This document shows, piece after piece, positions 28,269 through 62,126 of a stretch of 64,000 nucleotides of DNA (positions are counted from its first letter, which is position 1; every line of letters starts with the position of its first letter). The translations under genes were made by a program, and so were the position numbers. The notes under the pieces were generated by a model. That model was not told the origin of the DNA. It ran no database searches and saw nothing but the letters and a program-made list of their open reading frames with translations. This stretch comes from Flectonema sp. DT1601. Lineage: Eukaryota. The stretch is from the NCBI GenBank assembly GCA_964019425.1, contig OZ025784.1:744001-808000 (forward strand), in the 5' to 3' direction.

Positions 28269-28301
<33 letters not shown>

Positions 28302-28676: not shown

Positions 28677-28709
<33 letters not shown>

Positions 28710-29530: not shown

Positions 29531-29564
<34 letters not shown>

Positions 29565-29676: not shown

Positions 29677-29709
<33 letters not shown>

Positions 29710-33788: not shown

Positions 33789-33827
<39 letters not shown>

Positions 33828-34651: not shown

Positions 34652-34686
<35 letters not shown>

Positions 34687-34798
34687 CTTTTAATTATTTT
34701 TTAAAGAAAAAACAATCAGTTTAGCGTCTTGACCAGGACGGAAAATAGAAAGTGATCGACATAGTCGATCGATAAAAAACAATGATAACATTGTTTAT

Positions 34799-34837
<39 letters not shown>

Positions 34838-35475: not shown

Positions 35476-35512
<37 letters not shown>

Positions 35513-35884
35513 CTTTTTTTTTTTTTAAAGAAAAAACAATCAGTTTAGCGTCTTGACCAGGACGGAAAATAGAAAGTAATCGACATAGTCGATCGATAAA
35601 AAAAACAATGATAACATTGTTTATTCTTTTTTTTTTTTTTTTAAATCTTTTTATTTATTTTTTAAAAAGAAAAAAAAAAAAACGGAAAATAGAAATTAGT
35701 CAACAACGTCGAACGATAAAAAAAAAACAATGATAACATTGTTTATTCTTTTTTTTTATTTTTTTTTGTATTCTTTTTTATTAATTTTGAAAAAAAACAA
35801 TCAGTTTTGCGTCTTGACCAGGACGGAAAATAGAAAGTGATCGACATAGTCGATCGATAAAAAAACAATGATAACATTGTTTAT

Positions 35885-35921
<37 letters not shown>

Positions 35922-36317
35922 CTTTTTATTATTTTTAAAGAAAAAACAATCAGTTTAGCGTCTTGACCAGGACGAAAAATAGAAAGTGATCGACATAGTC
36001 GATCGATAAAATAAAACAATGATAACATTGTTTATTCTTTTTTTTTTTTTTTTTTTTTTTTTAAATCCTTCTTTTTATTTTTTAGAGAAAAAACAATCAG
36101 TTTAGCGTCTTGACCAGGACGGAAAATAGAAAGTAATCGACATAGTCGATCGATAAAATAAAAACAATGATAACATTGTTTATTCCTTTTTTTTTTTTTT
36201 TTATTCTTTTTATTTATTTTTAAAGAAAAAACAATCAGTTTAGCGTCCTGACCAGGACGGGAAATAGAAAGTGATCGACATAGTCGATCGATAAAAAAAC
36301 AATGATAACATTGTTTA

Positions 36318-36348
<31 letters not shown>

Positions 36349-36462
36349 TTCTTTTTATTTATTTTTTAAAGAAAAAACATCAGTTTAGCGTCTTGACCAG
36401 GACGGAAAATAGAAATTAGTCGACAAAGTCGATCGATAACAAAACAATGATAACATTGTTTA

Positions 36463-36493
<31 letters not shown>

Positions 36494-36771
36494 TTCTTTT
36501 TATTTATTTTTTAAACATACTTGTACCCCTTTAAAGGGGGCAAAATAAAGGGGAAATTAAAGGGCTTTTAATGCCCTTTAATTTCCGTAATTCCAAAATA
36601 AAGGGGAAATAAAGGGCTTTTAATCCAAATAAAGGGCTTTTTTTCCTTTTTTTCCAAAATAAAGGGGAAATAAAGGGGAAATAAGCGGAATAAAGGGGGG
36701 TGGGAAAGCCCCTTTATTTCCGCTTTATTTATTAAATCCCAAGGCACCCACCACGCTGCGTCATCCTAAGT

Positions 36772-37797
36772 CGGAAAGGAAATTACTCGAAAGTCGGGGC
36801 AGTTCGAACGTCAGCATTCACATCAGCAAGCAACCAGTCCTGAGTACTTAAAGAACCCAACCATTACGTGGATCAGTCACAGTCACACTTAGTATAGCGT
36901 TAGTACAGAGGACACGGATCTGCTATGCAGGGAAGTGACTTGAACTCGTTCAACTAATTAATGTGTGTAGATATAAGCGCCGCGAATTGACGGGTCTGAA
37001 GTTATGCTTTCCGAAGAGAGCAACCACCCACGCGAGTGTTATTTTGACGCTATAACCTGTGACTTTCAACACGTAACAACCAGGGATAATTCTCAGTAAG
37101 GCCGCCGTCACCGTGAAGCTGCTACGAATATAACCCAACAAACTAGCAATTCCTCCAACCTTTTTCGTCAGTCGGGATTGTTACACGCCGGAAAAGGAAA
37201 CTACTCGAAAGTCGGGGCAGTTCGAACGTCAGCATTCACATTAGCAAACAACCAGTCTTGAGAACCCAATCATTACGTAACATGTAACAACCAGGGATAA
37301 TTCTCAATAAGGCCGCCGTCACCGTGAAGCTGCTACGAATAACAGTTCGAACGTCAGCATTCACATTAGCAAGCAACCAGTCTTGAGAACCCAACCATTA
37401 CGTGCATCAGCCACAGTTAACCTGCAACTTTCAACATGTAACAACCAGGGATAATTCTCAATAAGGCCGCCGTCACCGTGAAGCTGCTACGAATAACAGT
37501 TCGAACGTCAGCATTCACATTAGCAAGCAACCAGTCTTGAGAACCCAACCATTACGTGCATCAGCCACAGTTAACCTGCAACTTTCAACATGTAACAACC
37601 AGGGATAATTCTCAATAAGGCCGCCGTCACCGTGAAGCTGCTACGAATAACAGTTCGAACGTCAGCATTCACATTAGCAAGCAACCAGTCTTGAGAACCC
37701 AATCATTACGTAACATGTAACAACCAGGGATAATTCTCAATAAGGCCGCCGTCACCGTGAAGCTGCTACGAACATAACCCAACAAACTAGCAATTCC
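36772..37797. repeat. Internal tandem repeats (154-bp period and length variants) in the TIR element
   Basis: CAGTTCGAACGTCAGCATTCAC at about 36799, 37218, 37343, 37497 and 37651; AAGGCCGCCGTCACCGTGAAGCTGCTACGAA repeated 5 times. Confidence 0.85.
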
Positions 37798-39182
37798 ACT
37801 CACTTCGAACGCACTCAGCCAGAGAGCTTGCCAACAGAACAGAACGCAAGGTTACTTTCGGGTCCAATCTTCGCCGTGAGCCTGGTGTCTTGTGCTGGGC
37901 TGGGTTTCCAGAGGGCCTCACCATGCACACAAACTCCTGGATGGGACGATCGAGGGAATCAACCAAGCCGAGAACTGAACCGGAAGGATAGGCTTACAAG
38001 ACTAACCTGAAGTAAACTTCAGAGCTTCGCTTTCCAGCATGCCGAAACAGAGCCATGGAAGGGGATTACACAACAACCTCATTAAACCCACTGGCCACCC
38101 CGTGCATAGTCGCCGCCAATGGTTATTACTATCCAAAGCGCTAACACGAGGCACCACACATTCGTAAGAAGGGAGTCCTACCGGAACGGACCACGCATCT
38201 GATTCTACTGGTTAAAGCAACTCCGAAAGAATGTATTCTCCATGATTTCAGACATGTAACTTTTGGATATCATGCTCCTGTCTAATTGTTCCCACATAAG
38301 CTTTTGTCTTGAGAGATTGAAAATAAAGTTTGTAGTAATAGCCTAAAGAGAGGAGAAAGTTTTTATTTTAAAATTGCGAGAAAAAATGATGTCAAGTCAA
38401 ATTGACCAGGTATTTCTCTGACAATCTTGACTGTCAGCGGCAGCGTAGTAAATGACTGCAGATAAATAAATACCACGTGAACATAGTTGAGCACCACTTG
38501 CTTGATGTAACCGCAACAGTTTTTTATAAAACCCATGAGTATTTAATTAATAATTATATTGTCTTGAAAACTTGAAGGGGGTTAACTGTTGGATTTTATA
38601 CGATTCCTCTCAGCTGCATACACATCTCTTTTTTCCGTGTTGTCATTCAGTGCAGTACGGAATCGAGTTATTCAACTGTGAATTAATCACCAAGACGAAC
38701 ACCAGGAAGGGGGGCGTTTGAGTTTGATTTGTAAAATACAACTATATCATCATAACGATATTTAACATCATAAGGAAACCGCTAGCTACCATGCTGGTAA
38801 CTGACCAACTCAGTCAACTCACTAATCTTTGGCCACCGTTCCGACTTTCTTTCCTTTCACACCGACAGTCCTCTAACGGACTAATCACGTATCGAAAAAA
38901 ACAGCGAAGGTCGAGCAACTTAATACCTCGTGCCGAAATTCTTGTGAGGAACTCAAGAATTTTTGCTGAAAAAAAAATTTCCAAAAAAAAAATTCCTCAC
39001 AATAATAATTCCTTACCAGATCACCAAAGGAAACCCCCAGTAAAAATTTTTCCTTGATCAGGAATTATTTTTGTGGGAGAAGAATCTTGTGAAATAACGA
39101 TTTTTGAGGAGAAATTCCTTGCAAGGATAATTCCCGCAATAAGAATATAGGAAAGAAAATTAAAAAAAAACTTTTTTAAGTG

Positions 39183-39262
39183 ACGCTGGTTGTCCACTGG
39201 TATGATTGTGGATTTGCATTCGCTAGGCTGCAGGTTCGAGTCCTGGTGGAGGATTTTTTTTT
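39183..39262 (+). pseudogene. Degenerate tRNA-like sequence followed by oligo-T
   Basis: T-arm CAGG-TTCGAGT-CCTG (B box GGTTCGAGTCC), D-arm-like CACTGGTATGATT, imperfect anticodon stem with 6-nt loop, no good acceptor stem. Confidence 0.45.
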
Positions 39263-40931
39263 TAATTAAAAACCATTAAAAGCCCTTTATTTTTATTTTT
39301 CCAAATTAAAGGGGAATTAAATCCCCTTTAATTTTAAAATAAAGGGCCCTTTAATTCATTAAATCCCCTTTAATTCCCCTTTATTTCATTAAATTGGAAA
39401 ATAAAGGGGAATTAATTAAAAGCCCTTTAATATTAAAAGCCCTTTATTTCCGCTTTAATTTTTAATTCCCCTTTAAAGGGGTACAAGTATGTTTAAAGAA
39501 AAAACAATCAGTTTAGCGTCCTGACCAGGACGGAAAATAGAAAGTAATCGACATAGTCGATCGATAAAAAAAAACAATGATAACATTGTTTAATCTTTTT
39601 TTTTTTTTTTTTTTTTTTATTCTTTTTATTTATTTAGAAAAAACAATCAGTTTAGCGTCTTGACCAGGACGGAAAATAGAAATTAGTCGACAAAGTCGAT
39701 CGATAAAAAAACAATGATAACATTGTTTATTCTTTTTTTTTTTTTTTTTTTTTAAATTCTTTTTATTTATTTTTTAAGAAAAAAAAAACGGAAAATAGAA
39801 ATTAGTCGACAAAGTCGAACGATAAAAAAACAATGATAACATTGTTTATTCTTTTTTTTATTTTTTTTTTTTTTATTCTTTTTTATTAATTTTGAAAAAA
39901 AAAAAAACAATCAGTTTAGCGTCTTGACCAGGACGGAAAATAGAAAGTAATCGACATAGTCGATCGATAAAAAACAATGATAACATTGTTTATTCTTTTT
40001 TTTTTTTTTTTTTTTTTAAATTCTTTTTATTTATTTTTTAAGAAGAAAAACGGAAAATAGAAATTAGTCGACAAAGTCGAACGATAAAAAAACAATGATA
40101 ACATTGTTTATTCTTTTTTTTATTTTTTTTTTTTTATATTCTTTTTTATTAATTTTGAAAAAAAAAAAAAAAAAAAACAATCAGTTTAGCGTCTTGACCA
40201 GGACGGAAAATAGAAAGTAATCGACATAGTCGATCGATAAAAATACAATGATAACATTGTTTAATCTTTTATAATTTTTTATTTTTTTTTTTTGTTTTAA
40301 AAAAAAAAAAAAAAACAAGCGGAATTGATCATAATGGGTGGTAGGGGTTGTTATAACTTCGTTTGAAAATTCTTCTTTTTTGATTTCTTTTTTTTTTTCT
40401 TTTTATAGGAGTTAAGATCACTTTCAGGAGACAACACATGAACAAGAGCAGCAAGCAGAGTTGACACTATCAATTCAAATTTGAAATACCGGGAATTAAT
40501 TTACAAGGAGGTATCTCAAGTGACTTGGTATCTCTAGCGTGTCGGTATCTCTGGAGTGCTGGTATCTCGTATGTGCGTTGGTATCTCATGAGTGATGGTA
40601 TCTCTTGTGCATTAGAAAAACGAAAAAGAATGTCATGACCATGACGGAAGAATTGAGGAATTGAGTTAACATGTTCAATTTAACTTATTTAAACTTTTTT
40701 TTTTTTAAACAGACCGTAACTATTTGAAAATAAAATGTAGATGGGAAACAGTGAAAAGTAAATTGGATGATAAAATTAAATGAGAAATATGACATAACAG
40801 ACCAGATAGCGAGTATTAAAAGGAAATTGAAAAGGAAAAGAGAAACTAGGTTAACACTTATTTAAAATTAAGACCGGTTAGTCAGTTTAAGGTCTTGACT
40901 AGGACCAACAAAAAAGAAAGAAAAAAAAAAA

Positions 40932-41565
40932 TTAACGATCAAGCTGAGCTGATCTTGTTTTTATTACAAATAGGGGAGCGGGAGGGATGGAAGGAATAGA
41001 GGAAAAAAAAAGAAAAGGTTGATCAATTGGATCTGATCGTCGAGAAGAAGAAATTATTTTAAAGGTTGATCGGTATAGCCGATCGTTGAGAAAAATAAAC
41101 AGATATAAATACAATCAGTTTAAATTAAAAAAAGAAAAAAAGATTAACGATCAAGCTGAGCTGATCTTGTTTTTATTACAAATAGGGGAGCGGGAGGGAT
41201 GGAAGGAATAGAGGAAAAAAAAAGAAAAGGTTGATCAATTGGATCTGATCGTCGAGAAGAAGAAATTATTTTAAAGGTTGATCGGTATAGCCGATCGTCG
41301 AGAAAAATAAACAGATATAAATACAATCAGTTTAAATTAAAAAAAGAAAAAAAGATTAACGATCAAGCTGAGCTGATCCTGTTTTTATTTAAAATTAGGG
41401 GAGCGGGAGGGATGGAAGGAATAAAGGAAAAAAAAAAAAAAAAAAAAAAAGGTCGATCAATTGGATCTGATCGTCGAGAAGAAGAAAACAATTATTTATA
41501 AAAAAAAAAAATGGTCGGTATAGCCGATCGTTGAGAAAAGAACAGATATAAATACAATCGGTTTT
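40932..41565 (-). repeat. 212-bp tandem repeat (about 3 units) in the 3' tail of copy C
   Basis: TTAACGATCAAGCTGAGCTGATC at 40932, 41144 and about 41355. Confidence 0.9.
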
Positions 41566-41700
41566 GGTGATCGACGAGTGGAGCGATCACTTGACAAGAA
41601 GGAAAAAGAAAGGACCGATTAATTGGGGCTTTGATTGTATTCCCAAGGCATGTTTTTTTTTTTTTTTTTTTATTATTCAATACAATTTTTTTATTATTCA

Positions 41701-44700
41701 AAGAAAAAAAACAAATGTGCCCCTGGTCCCAATTGCATACCTTATGTTGTATGGAAAAAGGTCCCAACTTTTATGGAAGCACTTTACAAGGTATTAAAGA
41801 GAATTTTCGAACTCAAGGCCTATCCGGATAGTTGGGGCTTAGCATTTGTAACAATGCTCCCAAAGCCCAACTCCGATGGGAAAGACATCTCGAAAACGAG
41901 ACCGATAGCTGTGGGCAACTGCGACGGGAAAATTTTTAATACGGTTATTCAGGAAGCCGTCGCAAACCACACTCTTTCTAAATTTAATTTTCAAAAAGGC
42001 TTTAGGAAAGGTGTCTCTGGATGTATCGAACATGCCACGATCACCTCAGAGATTTTTAAAGAAGTGAAAGCTCTCCGGAAAAACCTAACAATTGTCTGGG
42101 TGGATTTGGCAGATGCTTTCGGCTCAGTCAAACATCAATTAATTTTCTTTGCTTTAAAATATTTCGGAATTCACGAAAGAATAATCGGTTTCTATAAAAG
42201 GTATTATTCCTCCATGCGCGTCCAAATCAGAGTTGGAGAAGGCCTGACGCCCACTATCCCTTTTGAAGTTGGTGTCTTTCAAGGCTGCGTTTCCTCCCCA
42301 ACCCTTTTTAATTTGGTATTCCAACTACTGCTCTTTTCCTTAGCAGTTCATCAACAGGAAGCCTACGAGTTTAACAATAAATCCCTCCAACTATTAGTTG
42401 CAGCTTTTGCTGATGATTTACAACTTACCACGTCATCAAAGGCGGGGGCAAAATTGCTAATCAAGTCGCTCGAACAGTTTCTTTCCTGGTCTCGTGGTAT
42501 GAAAGCGAAACCCCAGAAATGCATTGCCCACAGCTTTGTACAAGGGAAACCAGCTAACCCGGACCTGAAGATTAACAATGTTCCGATTACGAATCTCCAG
42601 GAAGCTGGAGAGTTCAAATACCTCGGGCGTTGGTTTGAGCCGAACGCCAAAGAACAGAAATTGCGAGAGCGCCTGACCACTTTTACCAGGAATTTTTTAA
42701 AAAAAGTCGACGCCATGCCACTATATGGGTCTCAGAAGGCTTGGTCTGTCCAACACTTGTTATTGTCAAGGTTAACATGGAGTTTAATGATCCATGACTT
42801 ATCTCTCCCTTTTGCCAAAAAAATGGACAAAATTATTAAACCTTTTTTGAAGAAATGGTGGGGATTTGTCCGCTCTGCGAACACAGTCATCCTTTTTACC
42901 GGTTCAAAGAACACTGTTGGTCTCAGACACAAAAGAGTTGAGACGCTATATAAACAAGCGCAATCAATTAAACTAGACATCCTCAGATCCTCACAGGACT
43001 CTGACATGCACGGTGTCTACAATGTTATTATGGAGAAATCGTCCAACTGGTCGAAAAAGTTTTCAGCTTCTGCTGAGTGGGAGCGCCTTATTAAGTTTTT
43101 TTCTTACCGTTCTCTTGCGAAGCAATCAGCTGGTCTTGGTCACCGATTGCGCGATCTACGTACTACTCGCCCCGATCTCCTTAAGCGTTTTGAAGTGGAA
43201 GCCACAGATGAACTACTGAACTCTTTGAATAAATTACAAGTCCAAGGTCAGTGGAAGGAGTGGTCTAAATGTATGATAAACGATTTCACCTGGAATAAGG
43301 TACTTAGGGAGGGAAATCCTGCCTATATCTCATTTCAACTGAAAGCGGTTACAAACACCCTCCCCTCACAAGATAATTTAAAGAGGTGGAACATCACCAA
43401 TGTGGACCAAAATTGTGTTTTGTGTGGCAAAGTGAATCCTACCCTCAGGCATGTCTTAACAGGCTGTCCTGTCTCTTTAACACAAGGGAGGTTCACGTGG
43501 CGTCACGACAGCGTTCTAAAACGCATTGTTATCTTCTTGGAAGAGTTGATAATAAAAGCCAACAAAAGAAAAGAAAACCTCCCGCCTCCCTCTCAAACTT
43601 TTTTAAAAACAGGGGAAAATAAACCCCTAGAAAGAATTTCTAAAGAGACAGGCGAACTTTCACTAGCGAATGATTGGGTCATCCTCGACGATGTCGGTGA
43701 TAACCGCCTAATTGTTCCTCTTGAAGTGTGCCATGTCTCGTCCTCTCTAAGACCAGACATTTTTATTTATTCTTTTTTTGCGAAAAGAGCACTGATTCTG
43801 GAGCTGACGTGTCCAAATGAAGATCGTTTCGAAACCTCTCATGTCTTAAAGGAAAAGAAATACCTAAAGCTAAGAGACTCGATCATCGCTAATGGCTTCG
43901 ACTGTAACATTTTTACTATTGAAGTTGGCGTACGAGGAAACATCTGCATGGACCAGCTGAACATCTGGACACGTCACATCGGTTCACCTTTAGCACCAAC
44001 AAAAGCTTTATTTTGTGAATGCACCAGAATCGCCAGACAGTGCTCATATGTTCTGTTCCAGACGAGGAACCTCCCCACGTGGCATTCAAGACCACTAATG
44101 CGCAGCATTAAAGAAGAACCTGCCACTGCAAGTTTTATAAAAGATGGTAAAGAAATCTTCCCTGTGGAAGAAGTCAAAATCCACAAAGTAACAAAACTGA
44201 AAACGATCGAAAAGCTCACCATTGAAAGATCGTGGCTTGAGAAATGTTTTATCTGGCAAACTTGTTACGCATCGGCTCTTTCTATTCTACTTATTGCCAA
44301 TGGTTCTTCCTCCCCGGCCCCTTCTGTTTTGTTAGATGAGGATGAGCTCACTGGACTCTCCTTGTCATTCTCTTCTATTTCTTCCATCTCTTTCCAGACT
44401 CCCCCACCTGAACTCATGTCAACGGGATCGCAAACACTTCCTGCTGATTTCGCTATAGTGATAAGAACTCAATCTGACATGGGTTCTCAAACCCCCTTGT
44501 ACAAAAAAAAAGAAGGAAAATTAAGGCTGAAACTTTCCTTGAAATGCCAGATTTTAGAAAACGAATTAGAGCAAATGAAAGAACGAATTTTTTATGTTCT
44601 ATTTTTATTTTACTTTAATGCGATGTCAGCCTCCCTCGAGAAAGACAAGCAGTTACTAAATGGATTACCTGTTGAGATCAAAGCTACCAACCAGGATCCA

Positions 44701-45777
44701 TCCTCACTTCCTCCTGCGCCCCCTGTTTTAATTATTGAAAAAGATAGAAAAGAATATGAACTTCTGGAAGGAGTAATTCAACGGTTAACAGCAGAACGCG
44801 ATGAATCGAAGACTTCTCTTTCTGCACTAGTTCGACAATATGACTTAGTGGAAGATTACAGGAAACGTGAGCTCGCAAATCTGACTCAGAGAGCAGACCT
44901 ATCGGAAATGGCGCTCTTTAATTACCATCAAAGGTTTGTTCTTCTGTCGAACGAATTGGAGACCAAATGTAATGAGGAAAGAGAAAGTAAAATAAGACTT
45001 TTCTATACTCAACAGGAGGTCGAGAGTTTGCGTGCCGCGCGTCCCCGTATGACCCACTTTAGTCAACAAGTTTCCCCCCGAACCCCCGTTCTGTATGAAT
45101 CTGTTGCTATGATGAAGATAGCAAAGAACTACCTCTCGCTCTTTACAACTACGAGTAGTCTTTTTACTCCTCTTATTAAACCCCTTATCCCTACCCTTAA
45201 TTATATCACCCCTCTTTGTCCTCTAGCCTCAATTCCTCCGACAATGCCGCAGAGTGAAGCTCTCGACCGCACGCCGACCAAGATTTTACGACAAGAGAGT
45301 CACGTTATCTCCGTTAAAGAGAATACACCTATTGCGAGACAATGGTCCGAGGGTAGGATTGACTTACTCGAGAACTACTGTCGAGCAGTAGATGACTCTC
45401 TCGAAACAAACGAGAAAGCGGCAGAGCTCTCAGAACAACTTCTGGATGCCCAACTTCGCCTCTCGGAGCTGAATCACCAACGGTGTACAACTCACGCAGA
45501 GCAGCTTGAGCAATCCATGATGTTAACGGGACTGGCGAGCGATTTAAATGCTCAACTCGCCTTGGCACGGTCTCAAATTGCGGCCCTGAAGTTCCAATTA
45601 GCTTCATGGGCAGAAGGTTTGAGTCCGCCAGACACAGAAGAACATGAGGAAAATGAAACTCCGCCGAGAAAGTCTGAGCGTTCAACTCTGAAAAAACGAA
45701 CCCCTCCATCAAGATATCGTTACAATCGAAGGAGATGTTCTGCTGATGACGTTCACGGTGACTCCACCCCCTTGTAA
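41701..45777 (+). CDS. Reverse transcriptase - CCHC knuckle - restriction-like endonuclease polyprotein with long C-terminal coiled-coil extension (5'-truncated, no native start)
   Basis: RT motifs APGPNCIP, RPIAV, QKGF, WVDLADAFGSV, GVFQGCVSSPTLF, FADD, FKYLG. C-x2-C-x8-H-x4-C knuckle (CVLC...H...C), then GRFTWRHDSVL, RPDI...ILELTCP and KEKKY. The ORF-track start at 41635 lies in the flanking copy C. Confidence 0.92.
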   Translation, partial: KKKNKCAPGPNCIPYVVWKKVPTFMEALYKVLKRIFELKAYPDSWGLAFVTMLPKPNSDGKDISKTRPIAVGNCDGKIFNTVIQEAVANHTLSKFNFQKGFRKGVSGCIEHATITSEIFKEVKALRKNLTIVWVDLADAFGSVKHQLIFFALKYFGIHERIIGFYKRYYSSMRVQIRVGEGLTPTIPFEVGVFQGCVSSPTLFNLVFQLLLFSLAVHQQEAYEFNNKSLQLLVAAFADDLQLTTSSKAGAKLLIKSLEQFLSWSRGMKAKPQKCIAHSFVQGKPANPDLKINNVPITNLQEAGEFKYLGRWFEPNAKEQKLRERLTTFTRNFLKKVDAMPLYGSQKAWSVQHLLLSRLTWSLMIHDLSLPFAKKMDKIIKPFLKKWWGFVRSANTVILFTGSKNTVGLRHKRVETLYKQAQSIKLDILRSSQDSDMHGVYNVIMEKSSNWSKKFSASAEWERLIKFFSYRSLAKQSAGLGHRLRDLRTTRPDLLKRFEVEATDELLNSLNKLQVQGQWKEWSKCMINDFTWNKVLREGNPAYISFQLKAVTNTLPSQDNLKRWNITNVDQNCVLCGKVNPTLRHVLTGCPVSLTQGRFTWRHDSVLKRIVIFLEELIIKANKRKENLPPPSQTFLKTGENKPLERISKETGELSLANDWVILDDVGDNRLIVPLEVCHVSSSLRPDIFIYSFFAKRALILELTCPNEDRFETSHVLKEKKYLKLRDSIIANGFDCNIFTIEVGVRGNICMDQLNIWTRHIGSPLAPTKALFCECTRIARQCSYVLFQTRNLPTWHSRPLMRSIKEEPATASFIKDGKEIFPVEEVKIHKVTKLKTIEKLTIERSWLEKCFIWQTCYASALSILLIANGSSSPAPSVLLDEDELTGLSLSFSSISSISFQTPPPELMSTGSQTLPADFAIVIRTQSDMGSQTPLYKKKEGKLRLKLSLKCQILENELEQMKERIFYVLFLFYFNAMSASLEKDKQLLNGLPVEIKATNQDPSSLPPAPPVLIIEKDRKEYELLEGVIQRLTAERDESKTSLSALVRQYDLVEDYRKRELANLTQRADLSEMALFNYHQRFVLLSNELETKCNEERESKIRLFYTQQEVESLRAARPRMTHFSQQVSPRTPVLYESVAMMKIAKNYLSLFTTTSSLFTPLIKPLIPTLNYITPLCPLASIPPTMPQSEALDRTPTKILRQESHVISVKENTPIARQWSEGRIDLLENYCRAVDDSLETNEKAAELSEQLLDAQLRLSELNHQRCTTHAEQLEQSMMLTGLASDLNAQLALARSQIAALKFQLASWAEGLSPPDTEEHEENETPPRKSERSTLKKRTPPSRYRYNRRRCSADDVHGDSTPL

Positions 45778-46261
45778 TTCTCTTTTTCCTTACTTTCACA
45801 TCACTTTGTTTAGTTAGTTTTTTAGCTTATTTATTATTTATTGTTCGTTTTTGTTTGTATTATTTTATCGATATGTTTATGTCCGTCAGATCATAACGTT
45901 AATCAGGTTAATTGTTAATTGTTAATTATAAATGGTCTAAACCCCAATCCAAGTTCCCAAGGCTTGGCATAGATTTGAGTGACGCCTTACTGGCCTCCTC
46001 ATCCTCTATGAGTGGTGAGGGGGCCAGCAATGGTTTTTTTTTTTTTTTTTTTTCTCTTATTTCTTTTTTTCTTTTTCTTTTACTCTAATATGAAATATTT
46101 TTGAACAAAATGTGATTATTAATTTAAAAAAAAAAAAAAAAAATAATAATGTAAATGAATAATAAAAAAAAAAAAAAAAAAAACATGCCTTGGGAATACA
46201 ATCAAAGCCCCAATTAATCGGTCCTTTCTTTTTCCTTCTTGTCAAGTGATCGCTCCACTCG

Positions 46262-46900
46262 TCGATCACCAAAACCGATTGTATTTATATCTGTTCTTTT
46301 CTCAACGATCGGCTATACCGACCATTTTTTTTTTATAAATAATTGTTTTCTTCTTCTCGACGATCAGATCCAATTGATCGACCTTTTTTTTTTTTTTTTT
46401 TCCTTTATTCCTTCCATCCCTCCCGCTCCCCTAATTTTAAATAAAAACAAGATCAGCTCAGCTTGATCGTTAATCTTTTTTTCTTTTTTTAATTTAAACT
46501 GATTGTATTTATATCTGTTTATTTTTCTCGACGATCGGCTATACCGATCAACCTTTAAAATAATTTCTTCTTCTCGACGATCAGATCCAATTGATCAACC
46601 TTTTCTTTTTTTTTCCTCTATTCCTTCCATCCCTCCCGCTCCCCTATTTGTAATAAAAACAAGATCAGCTCAGCTTGATCGTTAATCTTTTTTTCTTTTT
46701 TTAATTTAAACTGATTGTATTTATATCTGTTTATTTTTCTCAACGATCGGCTATACCGATCAACCTTTAAAAAAATTTCCTCTTCTCGACGATCAGATCC
46801 AATTGATCAACCTTTTCTTTTTTTTTTCCTCTATTCCTTCCATCCCTCCCGCTCCCCTATTTGTAATAAAAACAAGATCAGCTCAGCTTGATCGTTAAAT
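46262..46900 (+). repeat. 212-bp tandem repeat (about 3 units) in the 3' tail of copy D
   Basis: Reverse complement of 40932-41565; contains GATCGGCTATACCGATC hairpins. Confidence 0.9.
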
Positions 46901-47559
46901 TTTTTTTTCTTTCTTTTTTGTTGGTCCTAGTCAAGACCTTAAACTGACTAACCGGTCTTAATTTTAAATAAGTGTTAACCTAGTTTCTCTTTTCCTTTTC
47001 AATTTCCTTTTAATACTCTCTATCTGGTCTGTTATGTCATATTTCTCATTTAATTTTATCATCCATTTTACTTTTCACTGTTTCCCATCTACATTTTATT
47101 TTCAAATAGTTACGGTCTGTTAAAAAAAAAAAAAAAGTTTAAATAAGTTAAATTGAACATGTTAACTCAATTCCTCAATTCTTCCGTCATGGTCATGACA
47201 TTCTTTTTCGTTTCTCTAATGCACAAGAGATACCATCACTCATGAGATACCAACGCACATACGAGATACCAGCACTCCAGAGATACCGACACGCTAGAGA
47301 TACCAAGTCACTTGAGATACCTCCTTGTAAATTAATTCCCGGTATTTCAAATTTGAATTGATAGTGTCAACTCTGCTTGCTGCTCTTGTTAATGTGTTGT
47401 CTCCTGAAAGTGATCTTAACTCCTGTAAAAAGAAAAAAAAAAAGAAATCAAAAAAGAAGAATTTTCAAACGAAGTTATAACAACCCCTACCACCCATTAT
47501 GATCAATTCCGCTTGTTTTTTTTTTTTTTTTTTAAAACAAAAAAAAAAATAAAAAATTA

Positions 47560-48606
47560 TAAAAGATTAAACAATGTTATCATTGTATTTTTATCGATCG
47601 ACTATGTCGATTACTTTCTATTTTCCGTCCTGGTCAAGACGCTAAACTGATTGTTTTTTTTTTTTTTTCAAAATTAATAAAAAAGAATATAAAAAAAAAA
47701 ATAAAAAAAAGAATAAACAATGTTATCATTGTTTTTTTATCGTTCGACTTTGTCGACTAATTTCTATTCTCCGTTTTTTTCTTAAAAAATAAATAAAAAG
47801 AATTTAAAAAAAAAAAAAAAAAAAAAAGAATAAACAATGTTATCATTGTTTTTTTATCGATCGACTATGTCGATTACTTTCTATTTTCCGTTTTTTTCTT
47901 TAAAAATAAATAAAAAGAATAAAAAAAAAAAAAAAAGGAATAAACAATGTTATCATTGTTTTTATTTTATCGATCGACTATGTCGATTACTTTCTATTTT
48001 CCGTCCTGGTCAAGACGCTAAACTGATTGTTTTTTCTTTAAAAAATAAAAAGAAGGATTTAAAAAAAAGAAGAAAAAAAAAAAAAAGAATAAACAATGTT
48101 ATCATTGTTTTTTTATCGATCGACTATGTCGATCACTTTCTATTTTTCGTCCTGGTCAAGACGCTAAACTGATTGTTTTTTCTTTAAAAATAATAAAAAG
48201 GATTTAAAAAAAAAAAAAAAAAAAAAAAGAATAAACAATGTTATCATTGTTTTTTTATCGATCGACTATGTCGATCACTTTCTATTTTCCGTCCTGGTCA
48301 AGACGCAAAACTGATTGTTTTTTTTTCAAAATTAATAAAAAAGAATACAAAAAAAAATAAAAAAAAAAAGAATAAACAATGTTATCATTGTTTTTTTTTT
48401 TATCGTTCGACGTTGTTGACTAATTTCTATTTTCCGTTTTTTTTTTTTCTTTTTAAAAAATAAATAAAAAGATTTAAAAAAAAAAAAAAAAAGAATAAAC
48501 AATGTTATCATTGTTTTTTTTATCGATCGACTATGTCGATTACTTTCTATTTTCCGTCCTGGTCAAGACGCTAAACTGATTGTTTTTTCTTTAAAAAAAA
48601 AAAAAG

Positions 48607-48643
<37 letters not shown>

Positions 48644-49417
48644 ATAAACAATGTTATCATTGTTTTTTTTTTATCGATCGACTATGTCGATCACTTTCTA
48701 TTTTCCGTCCTGGTCAAGACGCTAAACTGATTGTTTTTTTTTTCAAAATTAATAAAAAAGAATATAAAAAAAAAAATAAAAAAAAAAGAATAAACAATGT
48801 TATCATTGTTTTTTTTTTTATCGTTCGACTTTGTTGACTAATTTCTATTTTCCGTTTTTTTTCTTTTTAAAATAAAAAGAATTTAAAAAAAAAAAAAAAA
48901 AAGAGTAAACAATGTTATCATTGTTTTTTTTATCGATCGACTATGTCGATTACTTTCTATTTTCCGTCCTGGTCAAGACGCTAAACTGATTGTTTTTTTT
49001 TCAAAATTAATAAAAAAGAATATAAAAAAAAACAAAAAAAAAAAGAATAAACAATGTTATCATTGTTTTTTTTTATCGTTCGACTTTGTCGACTAATTTT
49101 TATTTTCCGTTTTTTTTCTTTAAAAATAAATAAAAAGAATTTAAAAAAAAAAAAAAAAAAAGAATAAACAATGTTATCATTGTTTTTTTATCGATCGACT
49201 ATGTCGATCACTTTCTATTTTCCGTCCTGGTCAAGACGCTAAACTGATTGTTTTTTCTTTAAAATAATAAAAAGGATTAAAAAAAAAAAAAAAAAAAAAA
49301 AAGAATAAACAATGTTATCATTGTTTTTTATCGATCGACTATGTCGATCACTTTCTATTTTCCGTCCTGGTCAAGACGCTAAACTGATTGTTTTTTCTTT
49401 AAAAAATAATTAAAAGG

Positions 49418-49448
<31 letters not shown>

Positions 49449-49840
49449 ATAAACAATGTTATCATTGTTTTTTTATCGATCGACTATGTCGATCACTTTC
49501 AATTTTCCGTCCTGGTCAGGACGCTAAACTGATTGTTTTTTCTTTAAAAATAAATAAAAAGAATAAAAAAAAAGAAAAAAAAAAGGAATAAACAATGTTA
49601 TCATTGTTTTTTTTTTATCGATCGACTATGTCGATTACTTTCTATTTTCCGTCCTGGTCAGGACGCTAAACTGATTGTTTTTTCTTTAAAAATAAATAAA
49701 AAGAATAAAAAAAAAAGAAAAAAAAAAGGAATAAACAATGTTATCATTGTTTTTTATCGATCGACTATGTCGATCACTTTCTATTTTCCGTCCTGGTCAA
49801 GACGCTAAACTGATTGTTTTTTCTTTAAAATAATTAAAAG

Positions 49841-49873
<33 letters not shown>

Positions 49874-50126
49874 ATAAACAATGTTATCATTGTCTTTTTT
49901 CTATCGATCGACTATGTGGATCACTTTCAATTTTCCGTCCTGGTCAGGACGCTAAACTGATTGTTTTTTCTTTAAAAATAAATAAAAAGAATAAAAAAAA
50001 AAAAAAAAAAAAGGAATAAACAATGTTATCATTGTTTTTTTTCTATCGATCGACTATGTCGATTAATTTCTATTTTCCGTCCTGATCGAGACGCTAAACT
50101 GATTGTTTCCTTTTTTTAAATAATAA

Positions 50127-50160
<34 letters not shown>
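47560..50160 (+). repeat. ~120-bp palindromic satellite array of copy D
   Basis: Long and short unit types; ends with the variant CCTGATCGAGACGCTAAACTGATTGTTTCC before the cap. Confidence 0.9.
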
Positions 50161-50164
<4 letters not shown>

Positions 50165-50936
50165 ATCTCCCTGCTATCCTCATATCCCCACAATAATATT
50201 ATACCTTTTCATTTTCTCTTTCCTTTTCTGGTCTTTTTTTTTTCTTTTTTTCCTTTTTCATACAACGTTTTTTATTTATATTTTATTTTTTTTTTTTTTT
50301 TCATGTTTGATTATTTCCTCTTCATATTTTTTTTCTATTCTTTCTTTTTTTTTTTTTTTTTTTTTTTCTCTACCTCTCTCTTAATTCTGTTCGTTTCTTT
50401 GAAACGAAAATTCATTTGAATATTATTCCTTGGTCAGCAACCATCATTGTCGCCCTTTGGGCCTGTTAAAAAAAAAAAAAAAATAAAAAGAAAGTTTACG
50501 TCGGGAATAGGGCAGGAGCCAAAAGCTCCCAGTCCGTTACTTCCCACTTATCGAAATTCTTACATTATTATTTTTTTTTTTTTTTTTTAAATTAATAATC
50601 ACATTTTGTTCAAAAATATTTCATATTAGAGTAAAAGAAAAAGAAAAAAAGAATAAGAGAAAAAAAAAAAAAAAAAAAACCATTGCTGGCCCCCTCACCA
50701 CTCATAGAGGATGAGGAGGCCAGTAAGGCGTCACTCAAATCTATGCCAAGCCTTGGGAACTTGGATTGGGGTTTAGACCATTTATAATTAACAATTAACA
50801 ATTAACCTGATTAACGTTATGATCTGACGGACATAAACATATCGATAAAATAATACAAACAAAAACGAACAATAAATAATAAATAAGCTAAAAAAACTAA
50901 ATAAACAAAATGATGTGAAAGTAAGGAAAAAGAGAA

Positions 50937-51872
50937 TTACAAGGGGGTGGAGTCACCGTGAACGTCATCAGCAGAACATCTCCTTCGATTGTAACGATAT
51001 CTTGATGGAGGGGTCCGTTTTTTCAGAGTTGAACGCTCAGACTTTCTCGGCGGAGTTTCATTTTCCTCATGTTCTTCTGTGTCTGGCGGACTCAAACCTT
51101 CTGCCCATGAAGCTAATTGGAACTTCAGGGCCGCAATTTGAGACCGTGCCAAGGCGAGTTGAGCATTTAAATCGCTCGCCAGTCCCGTTAACATCATGGA
51201 TTGCTCAAGCTGCTCTGCGTGAGTTGTACACCGTTGGTGATTCAGCTCCGAGAGGCGAAGTTGGGCATCCAAAAGTTGTTCTGAGAGCTCTGCCGCTTTC
51301 TCGTTTGTTTCGAGAGAGTCATCTACTGCTCGACAGTAATTCTCGAGTAAGTCAATCCTACCCTCGGACCATTGTCTCGCAATAGGTGTATTCTCTTTAA
51401 CGGAGATAACGTGACTCTCTTGTCGTAAAATCTTGGTCGGCGTGCGGTCGAGAGCTTCACTCTGCGGCATTGTCGGAGGAATTGAGGCTAGAGGACAAAG
51501 AGGGGTGATATAATTAAGGGTAGGGATAAGGGGTTTAATAAGAGGAGTAAAAAGACTACTCGTAGTTGTAAAGAGCGAGAGGTAGTTCTTTGCTATCTTC
51601 ATCATAGCAACAGATTCATACAGAACGGGGGTTCGGGGGGAAACTTGTTGACTAAAGTGGGTCATACGGGGACGCGCGGCACGCAAACTCTCGACCTCCT
51701 GTTGAGTATAGAAAAGTCTTATTTTACTTTCTCTTTCCTCATTACATTTGGTCTCCAATTCGTTCGACAGAAGAACAAACCTTTGATGGTAATTAAAGAG
51801 CGCCATTTCCGATAGGTCTGCTCTCTGAGTCAGATTTGCGAGCTCACGTTTCCTGTAATCTTCCACTAAGTC
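50937..51872 (-). pseudogene. C-terminal ORF fragment of copy C
   Basis: Translation essentially identical to the last ~309 aa of the copy D ORF. Confidence 0.9.
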
Positions 51873-51873
51873 T

Positions 51874-52890
51874 GTCTTTAACGTAGAAACGGAACAGAAA
51901 AAACGTGAACTATTGGAAAAAGAGAATCAACACCTGATCGCTGAATGTGATTTAGTGAAAAGTTCTCTTCTCTCATTAGTTCAAAGAACTAACTCTCTGG
52001 AGGAAAAAAGGACGAGCGAGCTGGCGCGACAATCACAAAGAGCGGACCACGCTGAAATGTTTTATTTCAACTTACAACAAAGGTTCATTCTATTAAACAA
52101 TGAATTAGAATCTAAGTGTAGGGACGAAACTGGAACAAAAATTCAACTCTATTTGTCTCAACAAGAGGTCGCAACATTGCGTGCTGGCCCTCAACTGTCC
52201 CATTTTTCCCAACAATTTTCCCCAACACCCCCTTTTTTATTCGAATCAACGTCCACGGTAAAGAATTATCGACTCCCTCTCATCGCAACAACCTATTACT
52301 CCTGGACTCCCAAACCCCGTCTTTCCTTTTTTTTTAAACCTCATTCTCCATTGATCACGTTCCCTTCTGAACTGTCTCAAAGTAGACTACTGGTATCGTC
52401 TTCTGCTCAAACGGAACAAGAAAAAGACAGTGCGGCGACCTCATCGACGGAAGATTCACCTATTGCGAGGCAATGGTCCGAAGGTAGACTCGATTTACTG
52501 GACAACTACTGTCAAGCGGTAAGTGACTCTCTCCAGACAAATGAGAAAGTGGCGCTGCTCTCGGAAAAACTAGTGGAAGAGCAACGTCGATGCTCCGAGT
52601 TGAGCTATCAACAGAAGACTATCCATAAAGAACAACTGGATCATTCCATGTTGTTGATGGAGATGGCCAGTGAGCTCTCTGAGCAACTCTATTTGGCAAA
52701 AGACCAAAACAGAGCTCTCAAATTTCAGTTACAAACATGGGCAAATGGTTTTAACCCACCCGAAAAGGAAGCGCAAGAAGAAAATGAGACCCCAAAGCGT
52801 CCGAGGGAGCGCCTATCACAAAAAAAGCGAACTCCACCCTCAACGAATCCTCATGATCGCAGAAGAATCTTTTTAGATGACGATTGCTAA
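51874..52890 (+). pseudogene. 5'-truncated ORF end of copy E: diverged paralogue of the coiled-coil extension
   Basis: Open frame from the junction; PIARQWSEGRLDLLDNYCQAVSDSLQTNEK vs PIARQWSEGRIDLLENYCRAVDDSLETNEK in copy D. Confidence 0.85.
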
Positions 52891-53370
52891 GTTCTAGTTT
52901 CTATTAGTATTAAATTATTTGTATTATTTTGTCGATATGTTTATGTCTGTCCGATCATAACGTCAATCAGATTAATTGTTAATTGTAATTGGTTTGAGCG
53001 CTTATCAAAAAAAAAAAAAAGCGAACTCCAACCTCAACGAACTTTCATGATCGCAGAAGAATCTTTTTAGATGACGATTGCTAAGTTCTAGTTTCTATTA
53101 GTATTTATTTATTTGTATTATTTTGTCGATATGTTTATGTCCGTCAGATCATAACGTTAATCAGATTAATTGTCAATTGTTAATTGTAAATGGTCTAAAC
53201 CCCAATCCAAGTTCCCAAGGCTTGGCATAGATTTGAGTGACGCCTTACTGGCCTCCTCATCCTCTATGAGTGGTGAGGGGGCCAGCAATGGTTTTTTTTT
53301 TTTTTCTCTTATTTCTTTTTTTCTTTTTCTTTTACTCTAATAGGAAATATTTTTGAACAAAATGTGATTA

Positions 53371-53405
<35 letters not shown>

Positions 53406-54167
53406 AATGAATAATAAAAAAAAAAAAAAAAAAAAAAACATGCCTTGGGAATACAACCAAAGCCCCAATTAATCGGTCCTTTCTTTTTTCCTTCTTGTCA
53501 AGTGATCGCTCCACTCGTCGATCACCAAAACCGATTGTATTTATATCTGTTCTTTTCTCAACGATCGGCTATACCGATCTTTTTTTTAAAAATAATTGTT
53601 TTCTTCTTCTCGACGATCAGATCCAATTGATCGACCTTTTCTTTTTTTTTCCTTTATTCCTTCCATCCCTCCCGCTCCCCTTATTTTAATAAAAACAAGA
53701 TCAGCACAGCTTGATCGTTAAACTTTTTTTATTTATTTATTTTTTTTTTTTTTTTATTTAAACTGATTGTATTTATATCTGGTTATTTTTCTCAACGATC
53801 GGCTATGCCGATCGACCATTAAAATAATTGTCTTCTTCTTCTCGACGACCAGATCCAATTGATCGACCTTTTCTTTTTTTTTCCTTTATTCCTTCCATCC
53901 CTCCCGCTCCCCTTATTTTAATAAAAACAAGATCAGCTCAGCTTGATCGTTATTTATTTATTTATTTATTTTTTTTTTTTTTTTGTTGGTCCTAGTCAAG
54001 ACCTTAAACTGACTAATCGGTCTTAACTTTAACTAAGTGAATGAACCCTTTCCGTTTTCCTTTTCCCTTTATTACTCTCTATCTGGTCTGTTATGTCATA
54101 AATCTCATTTAATTTTATCATTCATTTTAATTTTCACTGTTTCCCATCTACATTTTATTTTCAAATA

Positions 54168-54469
54168 CTGCAACTGGAAATATTACTGCGCTGAATAATT
54201 ACTGCGGGGAAATATTACTGCGCGGAAAAATTAGTGCGGTTTTTTTGAGAAAAGATTAGTGCGGTTTTTTCCACTTGGTGGTAGAAAAAAAATTGGTTGC
54301 TTTTTTGCTGTGTAAGGCACCAGCAGAAAAATGCATCTGGAGAAAAAATCACTTCTGAGCAGAAATATTAGTGCGGTGGAAATATTACTGCGTGGAAAAA
54401 TTAGTGCGGTTTTTTGCAGATTTGGAAATTAGTGCGGTTTTTTCCGCGCAGTAATATTTCCAGTTGCAG
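54168..54469. mobile_element. 302-bp MITE with TA target duplication
   Basis: TIR CTGCAACTGGAAATATTACTGCGC / GCGCAGTAATATTTCCAGTTGCAG; TA on both sides; empty site TTCAAATAGTTACGG at 47101-47115; internal ATTA(C/G)TGCG repeats. Confidence 0.9.
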
Positions 54470-54944
54470 TAGTTCCGGTCTGTCTCTGATGTTAAATAAA
54501 ACTGATCATGTTAACTCAATATTTTTTTTTATTATGTGCAAGAGATACCAACACGCAAGAGATACCAACGCACATACGAGATACCAGCACTTCCGAGATA
54601 CCGACACACAAGAGATACCAAGACACTTAAGATACCAGCAAGGACAGTGAGAGGTAGAATGAACTCTCCTCCTTGTGTCCGATCCTGATTATTTTTTGTT
54701 GAATTGGTAGTGTTACCTCAGTTTGCTACTCTCGTATCTGTGTTGTGTTAACTCATGTAAGTGATCTTAACTCCTGTTAAATAAAAAAAAAATTTCAAAA
54801 AAAAAGAAATTAAAAAAGAAGAATTTTCAAATGAAGTTATATCAACCCCTGCCACCCATTATGATCAATTCCGCTTGTTTTTTTTTTTTTTTTTTTTTTT
54901 TCTTCTTTCTTTTCTTCAAATATAAAAAAAAATTAAAAATATAA

Positions 54945-55463
54945 AAGATGAAACAATGTTATCATTGTTTTTTTTATCGATCGACTATGTCGATTACTTC
55001 CAGTTTTCCGTCCTGGTCAAGACGCTAAACTGATTGTTTTTTTTTTTTTTTTAAAAAATTAATAAAAAGAATATAAAAAAAAAAAAAAAAGAATAAACAA
55101 TGTTATCATTGTTTTTTTTTATCGTTCGACTTTGTCGACTAATTTCTATTTTCCGTTTCTTTTCTTTAAATAATAAATAAAAAGAATTTAAAATAAAAAA
55201 AAAGAATAAACAATGTTATCATTGTTTTTTTATCGATCGACTATGTCGATTACTTTCTATTTTCCGTCCTGGTCAAGACGCTAAACTGATTGTTTTTTTT
55301 TCAAAATTAATAAAAAAGAATATAAAAAAAAAAAAAAAAAAAAAAGAATAAACAATGTTATCATTGTTTTTTTATCGATCGACTATGTCGATCACTTTCT
55401 ATTTTCCGTCCTGGTCAAGACGCTAAACTGATTGTTTTTTTTTTCAAAATTAATAAAAAAGAA

Positions 55464-55494
<31 letters not shown>

Positions 55495-58122: not shown

Positions 58123-58150
<28 letters not shown>
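54945..58150 (+). repeat. ~120-bp palindromic satellite array of copy E
   Basis: Largely alternating long/short units; terminal variant then cap at 58151-58553. Confidence 0.9.

Positions 58151-58154
<4 letters not shown>

Positions 58155-62091: not shown

Positions 62092-62126
<35 letters not shown>

What the first reader, a model, noticed from the sequence alone, without database searches (positions are those of the whole stretch)
41680..50559. Non-LTR retrotransposon whose 3' tail is a multi-kb palindromic satellite array with a fixed terminal cap
Seen: after the ORF stop, copies C, D and E share the same order: short UTR, 212-bp repeats, unique spacer, ~120-bp satellite array, then a ~400-bp cap ending TATCGAAATTC (about 4.8 kb in D, 5.7 kb in E). 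Seven caps occur in the window with unrelated downstream sequence, while 5' ends are variable (inside the ORF or the satellite). Rare satellite variants appear in the same order in C and D (GACGCAAAACTG at ~48302 vs ~35802; CGACGTTGTTGAC at ~48408 vs ~35699). Established: a fixed 3' end with variable 5' truncation is the signature of target-primed reverse transcription, and RLE-clade 3' UTRs are usually far shorter. Inference: the satellite is transcribed and retrotransposed as part of the element, so this is a satellite-seeding retrotransposon. It is the best candidate here for an undescribed system.
Basis: partly seen in the sequence, partly recalled or inferred. Interest (0 to 1): 0.9.

Follow-up and report, generated by a model that had tools for sequence, protein, structure and literature searches.

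The report
Self-nesting retrotransposon with five-kilobase satellite tail
A young jumping gene in what is likely a marine diplonemid protist carries about 5 kb of repeat-filled sequence behind its protein gene and likely copies it along via RNA, scattering short hairpin-repeat arrays, but nothing here shows that these arrays grow into free satellite DNA.

Summary
41680-50559 (copy D) is a 5'-truncated non-LTR retrotransposon: RT, CCHC and restriction-like endonuclease, then a 4,782-bp tail of UTR, three ~212-bp repeats, spacer, 19 hairpin units and a 399-bp cap.

The window holds 8 copies. They are nested: 'C' plus two ORF pieces form one minus-strand copy, split by D and E. All 7 caps end within about 5 nt of one point. 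The 5' ends fall at 8 different places. Five reconstructed targets lose or gain 0-1 bp.

Cluster proteins on other contigs (282 members, 30 read) are 3'-biased, and several are fused to the element's own satellite or cap. A neighbouring gene's only other homologues come from the diplonemid Flectonema.

Corrections: units are 103-154 bp; only 4 of 7 caps end TATCGAAATTC; one of 8 arrays has no cap in the window.

'Satellite-seeding' is unproven: no free arrays were found, and no RNA data or genome were available. Long or repeat-bearing tails have precedents (GilM, HeT-A/TART, Ogre). Verdict: a new variant of a known kind.

The parts
41680..41697 (+). Filler at the 5' junction of copy D; partly a short copy of the flanking target
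   Evidence: Junction compared with the intact site
41698..45777 (+). Copy D, 5'-truncated ORF: RT (FADD), CCHC zinc knuckle, RHD and PD-(D/E)XK-type endonuclease, then a 560-aa orphan extension predicted to be long helices
   Evidence: Pfam RVT_1 E 4e-26 and zf-RVT; translation; profile match ends at aa 793 of 1353; model with mean pLDDT 44
45778..46270 (+). Proximal 3' UTR of D; 45900-46040 folds at z -2.6
46271..46917 (+). Three ~212-bp tandem repeats
   Evidence: TRF
46918..47555 (+). Spacer; begins with a variant of the satellite's third hairpin and holds 17/36-bp minisatellites
47556..50160 (+). Satellite array of D: 19 units of 110-149 bp with hairpins and A-runs; the last unit is a fixed terminal variant
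50161..50559 (+). Cap of D, 399 bp, pyrimidine-rich, with a predicted terminal stem-loop and no poly(A)
33391..41679 (-). Tail of copy CF ('C'): cap 33393-33792 plus extra AG, 25-26 satellite units interrupted by a foreign 2,976-bp TIR element (36516-39491), spacer, three repeats
50560..51872 (-). Copy CF, middle piece: UTR and ORF end, 99.7% identical to D's ORF; separated from C by the insertion of D
58555..59064 (-). Copy CF, 5' piece of ORF, 99.6% identical to D; the host 1396-bp unit resumes at 59064
51873..58553 (+). Copy E: second subfamily with a ~50%-identical C-terminal extension, two 232-bp repeats, 24 satellite units and cap; inserted in the ORF of CF
23691..30838 (+). Copy A: 5'-truncated in the satellite (10 units), interrupted by two foreign insertions with inverted ends (about 24660-26404 and 26970-30556); cap split
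27741..30540 (-). Copy B: 17 satellite units plus cap ending in an A-run, inside the second foreign insertion
59534..60061 (+). Copy G1: 4 satellite units ending in the terminal unit; cap absent from the window
60240..60761 (+). Copy G2: half a terminal unit plus cap
61677..63198 (-). Copy H: 8 satellite units plus cap with extra AG

Best explanation
This is a young, multi-copy non-LTR retrotransposon with a restriction-like endonuclease, and its ~5-kb repeat-filled tail is likely part of the element's RNA and likely copied with it by target-primed reverse transcription.

Shown: RT and endonuclease motifs, a shared 3' end, variable 5' ends, nested insertions with 0-1 bp target change, inherited unit order in C and D, and two ORF subfamilies with their own tails.

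Inferred steps:
(1) A ~10-11-kb RNA is made, likely by read-through in a host with polycistronic transcription, where the 48 AATAAA hexamers in the array would not act as cleavage signals.
(2) The protein likely binds the stem-loop in the last ~70 nt of the cap, nicks a target with little sequence preference and starts cDNA at the cap end.
(3) Because 5 kb must be copied before the ORF is reached, most events would stop early. This would explain why 5 of 8 copies here are array-plus-cap or array-only pieces.
(4) Unit number drifts (19-26) by slippage or unequal exchange.
(5) Copies pile up in repeat-rich nests and insert into one another.

The element therefore disperses short arrays; growth into free satellite is not shown.
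For: Protein. RT by Pfam. The CCHC-RHD-RPD-E spacing fits the published REL consensus, except RHD spacing 11 vs 9-10 (vs PMC12857005 passage). A family profile hits R2 structures best, E 1e-92, against L1 at 1e-48.

3' ends. 7 of 7 caps end within about 5 nt of one point. Five chimeric proteins that match no junction in this window show the same end, read back from their translation (P0071, P0161, P0162, P0164, P0166).

5' ends. Three are in the ORF and five in the satellite. Of 30 listed cluster members (of 282), 19 reach the natural stop and 1 holds the N-terminal zinc fingers; coverage rises from 1 at the N-terminus to 20 near the C-terminus.

Targets. Removing D, E and CF restores the intact sites to within 1 bp; H and G2 fit likewise against inferred targets.

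Co-inheritance. C and D share the D-type ORF end, 98.4% identity over the proximal tail and 8 ordered units. E has the other ORF end, other repeats and another unit order.

Nesting elsewhere. N-termini read from the satellite (P0074, P0082), the cap (P0071) or the 1396-bp unit (P0084, P0089, P0166).

Host. A neighbouring gene's only non-self homologues are Flectonema neradi proteins at 54-57%. Diplonema papillatum likely co-transcribes genes, trans-splices its mRNAs and has 3' UTRs up to several kb (PMC10161547). Trypanosomes do not use AAUAAA-type signals (PMC8311971).
Against: - No RNA evidence and no genome were available, so neither transcripts through the tail nor genome-wide array-cap linkage was tested.
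- One of 8 arrays (G1) has no cap in the window.
- D's array has 48 sense AATAAA against 2 antisense. This would be a problem if the host does use that signal; its disuse is extrapolated from trypanosomes.
- The cap end folds no better than shuffles (z -1.0), and no compensatory change is seen among 7 caps.
- The unit-order signal is strong in only 1 of 21 pairs. That pair (C, D) is adjacent, so local gene conversion could contribute.
- The protein-cluster evidence is indirect: gene calls only, 30 of 282 members read, biased to junctions that stay in frame.
Confidence: 0.83

Rival explanations
1. The element copies only a short tail. The multi-kb arrays grow or are homogenised afterwards at the DNA level, by unequal exchange or gene conversion among neighbouring copies.
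For: Unit counts differ (19, 24, 25-26). Adjacent near-identical units occur within arrays (E12-15, C24-25). The order match is strong only for the neighbours C and D.
Against: All three complete arrays are of similar size and have the same first-unit position and terminal unit. Truncated copies break inside the array, as expected if the template already held it.
Confidence: 0.08
2. Satellite plus cap is a separate non-autonomous DNA element of the Helitron/Helentron kind (fixed 3' end, rolling-circle copying) that captured pieces of a retrotransposon.
For: Fixed 3' end, a hairpin near the end, no target duplication and internal tandem repeats. Satellite-carrying Helitron/DINE elements are listed in PMC9659126.
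Against: The ends are TTC or TTCAG rather than CTRR. Only D of five reconstructed targets is between A and T (CTRR and A|T rules recalled, not from a call). ORF pieces are always collinear and joined at the natural stop, in two subfamilies. ORF coverage is graded 3' to 5'.
Confidence: 0.04
3. 33393-50559 is a foldback DNA transposon whose long inverted terminal repeats are the C and D tails, with the ORF as cargo.
For: The C and D tails form a multi-kb inverted repeat around the ORF.
Against: C continues beyond D's cap as UTR and ORF on the minus strand. Removing D restores the UTR to within 1 bp, so D inserted into C. Other copies have one tail only.
Confidence: 0.02
4. The nested structure is an assembly artefact of repeat-rich reads.
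For: Long homopolymers and 99-100% identical repeats; reads could not be inspected.
Against: Three nested junction pairs restore intact targets to within 1 bp, copies carry private variants, and similar chimeras occur on other contigs.
Confidence: 0.03

Closest known systems
HERO-like, non-site-specific RLE non-LTR retrotransposons (label recalled from motif resemblance; clade described in PMC4640811, passages)
   Same: Single ORF with N-terminal zinc fingers, RT, CCHC and RLE; many unrelated targets. It sits in a clade of 32 RLE proteins that includes Sycon ciliatum proteins at 35% identity (SH-aLRT 98, quick tree).
   Different: It has a 560-aa extension after the RLE, whereas 60 related loci with a closed frame stop after a median of 10 aa (maximum 137). 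Only 1 of those loci showed a tandem array of period 30 bp or more downstream (65 bp x 4), though most contigs end within 1 kb of the stop. No named HERO sequence was available to test membership.
GilM/GilT/GilD of Giardia; HeT-A/TART/TAHRE of Drosophila (PMC5537684, passages)
   Same: Non-LTR elements with unusually long 3' UTRs. An earlier scan note reports 775-bp tandem repeats in the GilM tail (primary paper not held).
   Different: Those lie head-to-tail in one orientation at telomeres. Here 5 copies are plus and 3 minus, nested inside each other, and there are two array types with up to 26 hairpin units.
CRE/SLACS/CZAR of trypanosomatids (PMC12278014); MoTeR/FoTeR of fungi (PMC12857005)
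   Same: RT plus RLE with internal repeat regions or VNTRs; CRE occurs in the likely host's sister group.
   Different: CRE targets SL RNA genes and has poly(A) and target duplications. FoTeR repeats are mostly 5', with 3' UTRs of 336-409 bp. Here the targets vary, there is no poly(A) in 6 of 7 ends, and the tail is 4.8-5.7 kb.
Ogre LTR retrotransposons (PisTR-A), HeT-A-derived 18HT, cetacean L1-derived satellite (PMC9659126, passages)
   Same: Tandem repeats in or from a retroelement 3' region.
   Different: In those cases free satellite arrays are documented; here none was found outside copies.
Zepp/ZeppL clusters of green algae (PMC9940879, passages)
   Same: A LINE forming dense local clusters; here the family covers 29,860 of 40,310 bp of the window's right part.
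   Different: ZeppL is described as an L1-type element at putative centromeres; no centromere evidence exists here.

Membership tests
RLE-type (R2-group) non-LTR retrotransposon | Single ORF with non-LTR reverse transcriptase | tested here: met
   Pfam RVT_1 E 4e-26; profile best hits are R2 structures
RLE-type (R2-group) non-LTR retrotransposon | CCHC knuckle, RHD and PD-(D/E)XK endonuclease after the RT | tested here: met
   C-X2-C-X8-H-X4-C-X11-RHD and RPD-X-E motifs, compared with the consensus in PMC12857005
RLE-type (R2-group) non-LTR retrotransposon | N-terminal zinc fingers | tested here: met
   Two zinc-finger-like motifs, read by eye, in family member P0079; truncated away in all window copies
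RLE-type (R2-group) non-LTR retrotransposon | Fixed 3' end with variable 5' truncation | tested here: met
RLE-type (R2-group) non-LTR retrotransposon | RNA intermediate that includes the tail | not testable with these tools
   No RNA runs could be examined
HERO clade | RT groups with named HERO elements | not testable with these tools
   No named HERO protein among the listed hits; Repbase and Dfam not available
HERO clade | Mostly no sequence-specific target | tested here: met
   Seven different downstream flanks; CCTT within 1 nt in 3 of 7
NeSL clade (nematode, Ulp1-bearing) | RT monophyly with Caenorhabditis elements | tested here: not met
   AU test rejects the grouping, p 8.6e-7, on a 25-row quick tree; the group was named after a first tree had been seen. 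NeSL label inferred from PF02902 and PMC4640811.
CRE/SLACS | Insertion in SL RNA genes, poly(A) tail, target duplication | tested here: not met
   Targets are the element itself, a 1396-bp unit and other repeats; 0-1 bp change; A-run in 1 of 7 ends
CRE/SLACS | RT groups with CRE elements | not tested
   No named CRE protein was in the trees
Telomeric elements (GilM, HeT-A/TART) | Head-to-tail arrays in one orientation at chromosome ends | tested here: not met
   5 plus and 3 minus copies, nested; distance to the chromosome end unknown
Helitron/Helentron | 3' CTRR end and insertion between A and T (recalled) | tested here: not met
Satellite-seeding retroelement (Ogre-like) | Free arrays of the unit outside element copies | tested here: inconclusive
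   None in the 64-kb window; genome not held

The most novel reading that the evidence does not exclude
The element uses the host's trans-splicing to cut its own RNA to a precise, poly(A)-free 3' end. Two independent copies end in ...TTCAG with AG not derived from the target, behind pyrimidine tracts, and the neighbouring host gene has AATTCAG 21 nt before its start codon. Meanwhile the hairpin array and the lineage-specific helical extension steer copies into self-nesting heterochromatic clusters, making this a retrotransposon that builds satellite-rich (possibly centromeric) domains in diplonemids.
Probability: 0.12. Interest if true: 0.82.

Novelty: new variant of a known kind. Interest (0 to 1): 0.5.

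Why it matters
If the tail is in the RNA, a restriction-like-endonuclease retrotransposon copies more than 5 kb of homopolymer- and hairpin-rich sequence before it reaches its own gene. That is far beyond the 130-600-bp 3' UTRs reported for R2, BLAG and FoTeR elements. It is a natural test of RT processivity and of how tandem arrays spread by retrotransposition. It also gives a curated retroelement in a likely diplonemid, a group whose first genome paper deferred rigorous transposon identification. The orphan 560-aa extension, present in two versions on a 99%-identical enzyme core, is a candidate targeting or RNA-binding module.

Tried and rejected
- No whole genome is held and no sequencing runs could be examined, so genome-wide polarity and transcripts stay open.
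- Rfam on the tail: 4 matches at E 0.14-0.81, all far below gathering scores; no ribozyme.
- The cap motif had no exact match in metagenome contigs. The tail has no BLASTN match in the 79 related loci.
- Viral contigs gave only 4 distant relatives at 22-24%.
- The C-terminal extension hit only 18 proteins among 1.84 billion, all pieces of this family. ESM Atlas gave generic coiled-coil look-alikes at low recognition. The single-sequence model (pLDDT 44) was too weak for a fold search.
- The careful 54-row tree did not finish; quick trees were used.
- Foldback/TIR and twin-priming readings of the C-D inverted repeat were rejected by target reconstruction.
- Telomere-elongating role rejected on mixed orientation.
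- Splicing-out of the tail was considered for four ORF-to-cap fusion proteins (P0002, P0082, P0151, P0160). It was rejected because they enter the cap at four different positions; short cap-only insertions or deletions fit better.
- Ten literature searches listed no paper describing this family. Repbase, Dfam and most subscription journals were not searchable.
- The supplement search of PMC10161547 found no 'HERO', 'restriction-like' or 'non-LTR' in the 7 files held as text. Files or pages not readable as text may bear on this.
Full report
1. What is in the sequence. The window is eukaryotic (37% GC) and no genome is held. The frame 41635-45777 (+) encodes a non-LTR reverse transcriptase (Pfam RVT_1, E 4e-26) and a zinc knuckle. 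After the stop come a UTR, three ~212-bp repeats (46271-46917), a spacer, 19 satellite units (47556-50160) and a 399-bp cap ending at 50559. Units are 103-154 bp across the window; 27 of 107 are a short type lacking the third hairpin. The last unit before each cap is a fixed variant. C and D share 8 near-identical units in order, which 0 of 1000 shuffles reach. B-D is marginal (10 of 1000) and the other 19 of 21 pairs show nothing.

2. The copies are nested. C and D look like long inverted repeats around the ORF, but they are not. C (minus, 33391-41679) continues after D's cap as UTR and ORF on the minus strand (50560-51872) and again after E's cap (58555-59064). Both ORF pieces are 99.6-99.7% identical to D. 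Taking D out restores the UTR with one T lost and an 18-nt filler at the 5' junction. Taking E out restores the ORF with a 1-bp overlap. Taking the whole copy out restores a 1396-bp host unit with one base lost. H and G2 fit inferred targets to within 1 bp. So there are 8 copies: A, D, E, G1 and G2 on plus; B, CF and H on minus. They cover 29,860 of the 40,310 bp right of 23,690. All 7 caps end within about 5 nt of one point: four at ...GAAATTC, two with an added AG not present in the target, one in an A-run. The 5' ends lie at 8 different places, three in the ORF and five in the satellite. G1 has the terminal unit but no cap; a GC-rich reading frame begins in its final A-run. No satellite core lies outside a copy, apart from related hairpins in the spacer and the 232-bp repeat.

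3. The protein. Motifs match the published REL consensus except for one spacing (PMC12857005 passages). A profile of 24 relatives scores R2 structures at E 1e-92 and L1 at 1e-48. In quick RT trees the family lies in a clade of mostly unnamed RLE proteins that includes Sycon ciliatum proteins (SH-aLRT 98 in 54 rows, 97 in 25 rows). Grouping with Ulp1-bearing Caenorhabditis elements is rejected (p-AU 8.6e-7). My label 'HERO-like' is recalled from motifs; no named HERO was available. Member P0079 supplies two N-terminal zinc-finger-like motifs, so the full ORF is about 1,740 aa. Of 79 related loci, 63 reach the RLE end and 60 have a closed frame; these stop after a median of 10 aa (maximum 137). 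The extension has no relatives outside this family among 1.84 billion representatives (18 hits, all self) and is predicted at low confidence to form three long helices. It exists in a D-type and an E-type, about 50% identical, on a 99% identical RT-RLE core (P0003, P0083, P0084). P0167 suggests a third type.

4. Evidence from other contigs. The two main clusters hold 235 and 47 proteins, and all 30 listed come from ENA contigs of 14 kb to 1.39 Mb. Of the 30 listed, 19 reach the natural stop and 1 has the N-terminus; coverage climbs from 1 to 20 toward the 3' end. Foreign N-termini translate the satellite (P0074, P0082), the cap (P0071) or the 1396-bp unit (P0084, P0089, P0166). Five proteins run into or out of the cap's end within a few bases of the same point (P0071, P0161, P0162, P0164, P0166). 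This supports fixed 3' ends and self-nesting elsewhere. It is indirect, biased to in-frame junctions, and says nothing about free arrays.

5. Host. The left 22 kb is a 7.1-kb tandem gene array encoding a cysteine-rich repeat protein. Its only non-self homologues are three Flectonema neradi clusters at 54-57%, so the host is likely a diplonemid (inference from one gene). D. papillatum likely co-transcribes gene clusters, trans-splices essentially all mRNAs, and has 3' UTRs with a median of about 800 bp reaching several kb (PMC10161547: passages and section 7). Trypanosomes place poly(A) by distance from a pyrimidine tract rather than by a hexamer (PMC8311971 passages). This weakens the main objection to a tail-spanning RNA, namely 48 sense AATAAA in D's array, but only by extrapolation.

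6. Mechanism. Most likely (0.83): target-primed reverse transcription starts at the cap end of a 10-11-kb RNA; frequent early stops leave array-plus-cap pieces; unit number drifts; insertions accumulate in repeat nests. The RNA step, protein binding to the terminal stem-loop (predicted, z only -1.0) and the cause of nesting are inferred. Rivals are post-insertion array growth (0.08), a Helitron-like carrier (0.04), misassembly (0.03) and a foldback transposon (0.02).

7. Comparison and novelty. What I saw of the papers: passages of PMC4640811, PMC9659126, PMC9004415, PMC7650587, PMC9940879, PMC10088271, PMC12621601, PMC8311971, PMC12857005, PMC12278014 and PMC5537684; passages, section 7 and a supplement word search of PMC10161547; only search listings for the rest. 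Long 3' UTRs are reported for GilM/GilT/GilD and the Drosophila telomeric elements, internal repeat regions for CRE, VNTRs for FoTeR/MoTeR, and satellites derived from the 3' regions of Ogre, HeT-A and L1. An earlier scan note reports 775-bp repeats in the GilM tail, which I could confirm only as far as the long UTR. Ten searches listed no paper on this family, but Repbase and Dfam were not searchable. What appears new is the combination: a non-telomeric, self-nesting RLE element with a 4.8-5.7-kb tail holding two array types and up to 26 hairpin units, plus an orphan extension in two versions, in a likely diplonemid. It works like a known kind of element; it is a new variant, not a new system. 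The claim that it seeds satellites remains untested. Interest 0.5.

Noticed in passing
window 1-22379: Three near-identical ~7.1-kb tandem gene copies (minus strand, no stop in 2044-2384 codons) encoding a protein with a signal-peptide-like start, 38-48 repeats of 34 aa rich in cysteine, and a C-terminal hydrophobic segment; homologues in Flectonema neradi.
   Followed up: partly
window 30887-33390, 59064-59534, 60977-61551: A 1396-bp unit in 100%-identical tandem copies shares 99 bp (79%) with the element's spacer. It has an inverted 576-bp piece inserted at 60977-61551 and is a repeated target of this element (two copies here, three chimeric proteins elsewhere). It may be a second retroposon-like family.
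   Followed up: partly
window 36516-39491: A 2,976-bp insertion with long imperfect terminal inverted repeats and internal 154-bp tandem repeats sits in C's satellite; no long ORF.
   Followed up: partly
window 24660-26404 and 26970-30556: Two non-autonomous insertions with inverted ends split copy A. The first has broken reading frames; the second contains copy B.
   Followed up: partly
window 54163-54474: A ~300-bp MITE with 36-nt inverted ends and 16-bp internal repeats in E's spacer; the same element interrupts protein P0073 elsewhere.
   Followed up: partly
window 60062-63805: A GC-rich, repeat-rich reading frame ending in a cysteine cluster (weak B-box/ZZ hits, E 0.005-0.02) hosts copies G2 and H; likely another mobile element, starting inside G1's last A-run.
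   Followed up: partly
window 46918-46950 and 46271-46917 vs 47556-50160: The spacer start and the 212-bp unit share short motifs with the satellite (24 nt at 87.5%; TAAACTGATTGT). The spacer hairpin has GGTC...GACC where the satellite has CGTC...GACG, a two-sided change. This hints at a common origin of the tail modules.
   Followed up: partly
window 47556-50160: Every satellite unit ends in a sense-strand A-run, as if each were a former polyadenylated 3' end; similar repeats were proposed to derive from transposon arrays in Drosophila virilis (PMC10088271 passage).
   Followed up: no
window 23577-23690: The sequence just upstream of copy A also appears fused to the ORF in protein P0152, so it is itself a repeat.
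   Followed up: no
L057, first 260 bp after the stop: A related RLE element has a 65-bp x 4 tandem repeat directly after its stop codon.
   Followed up: no
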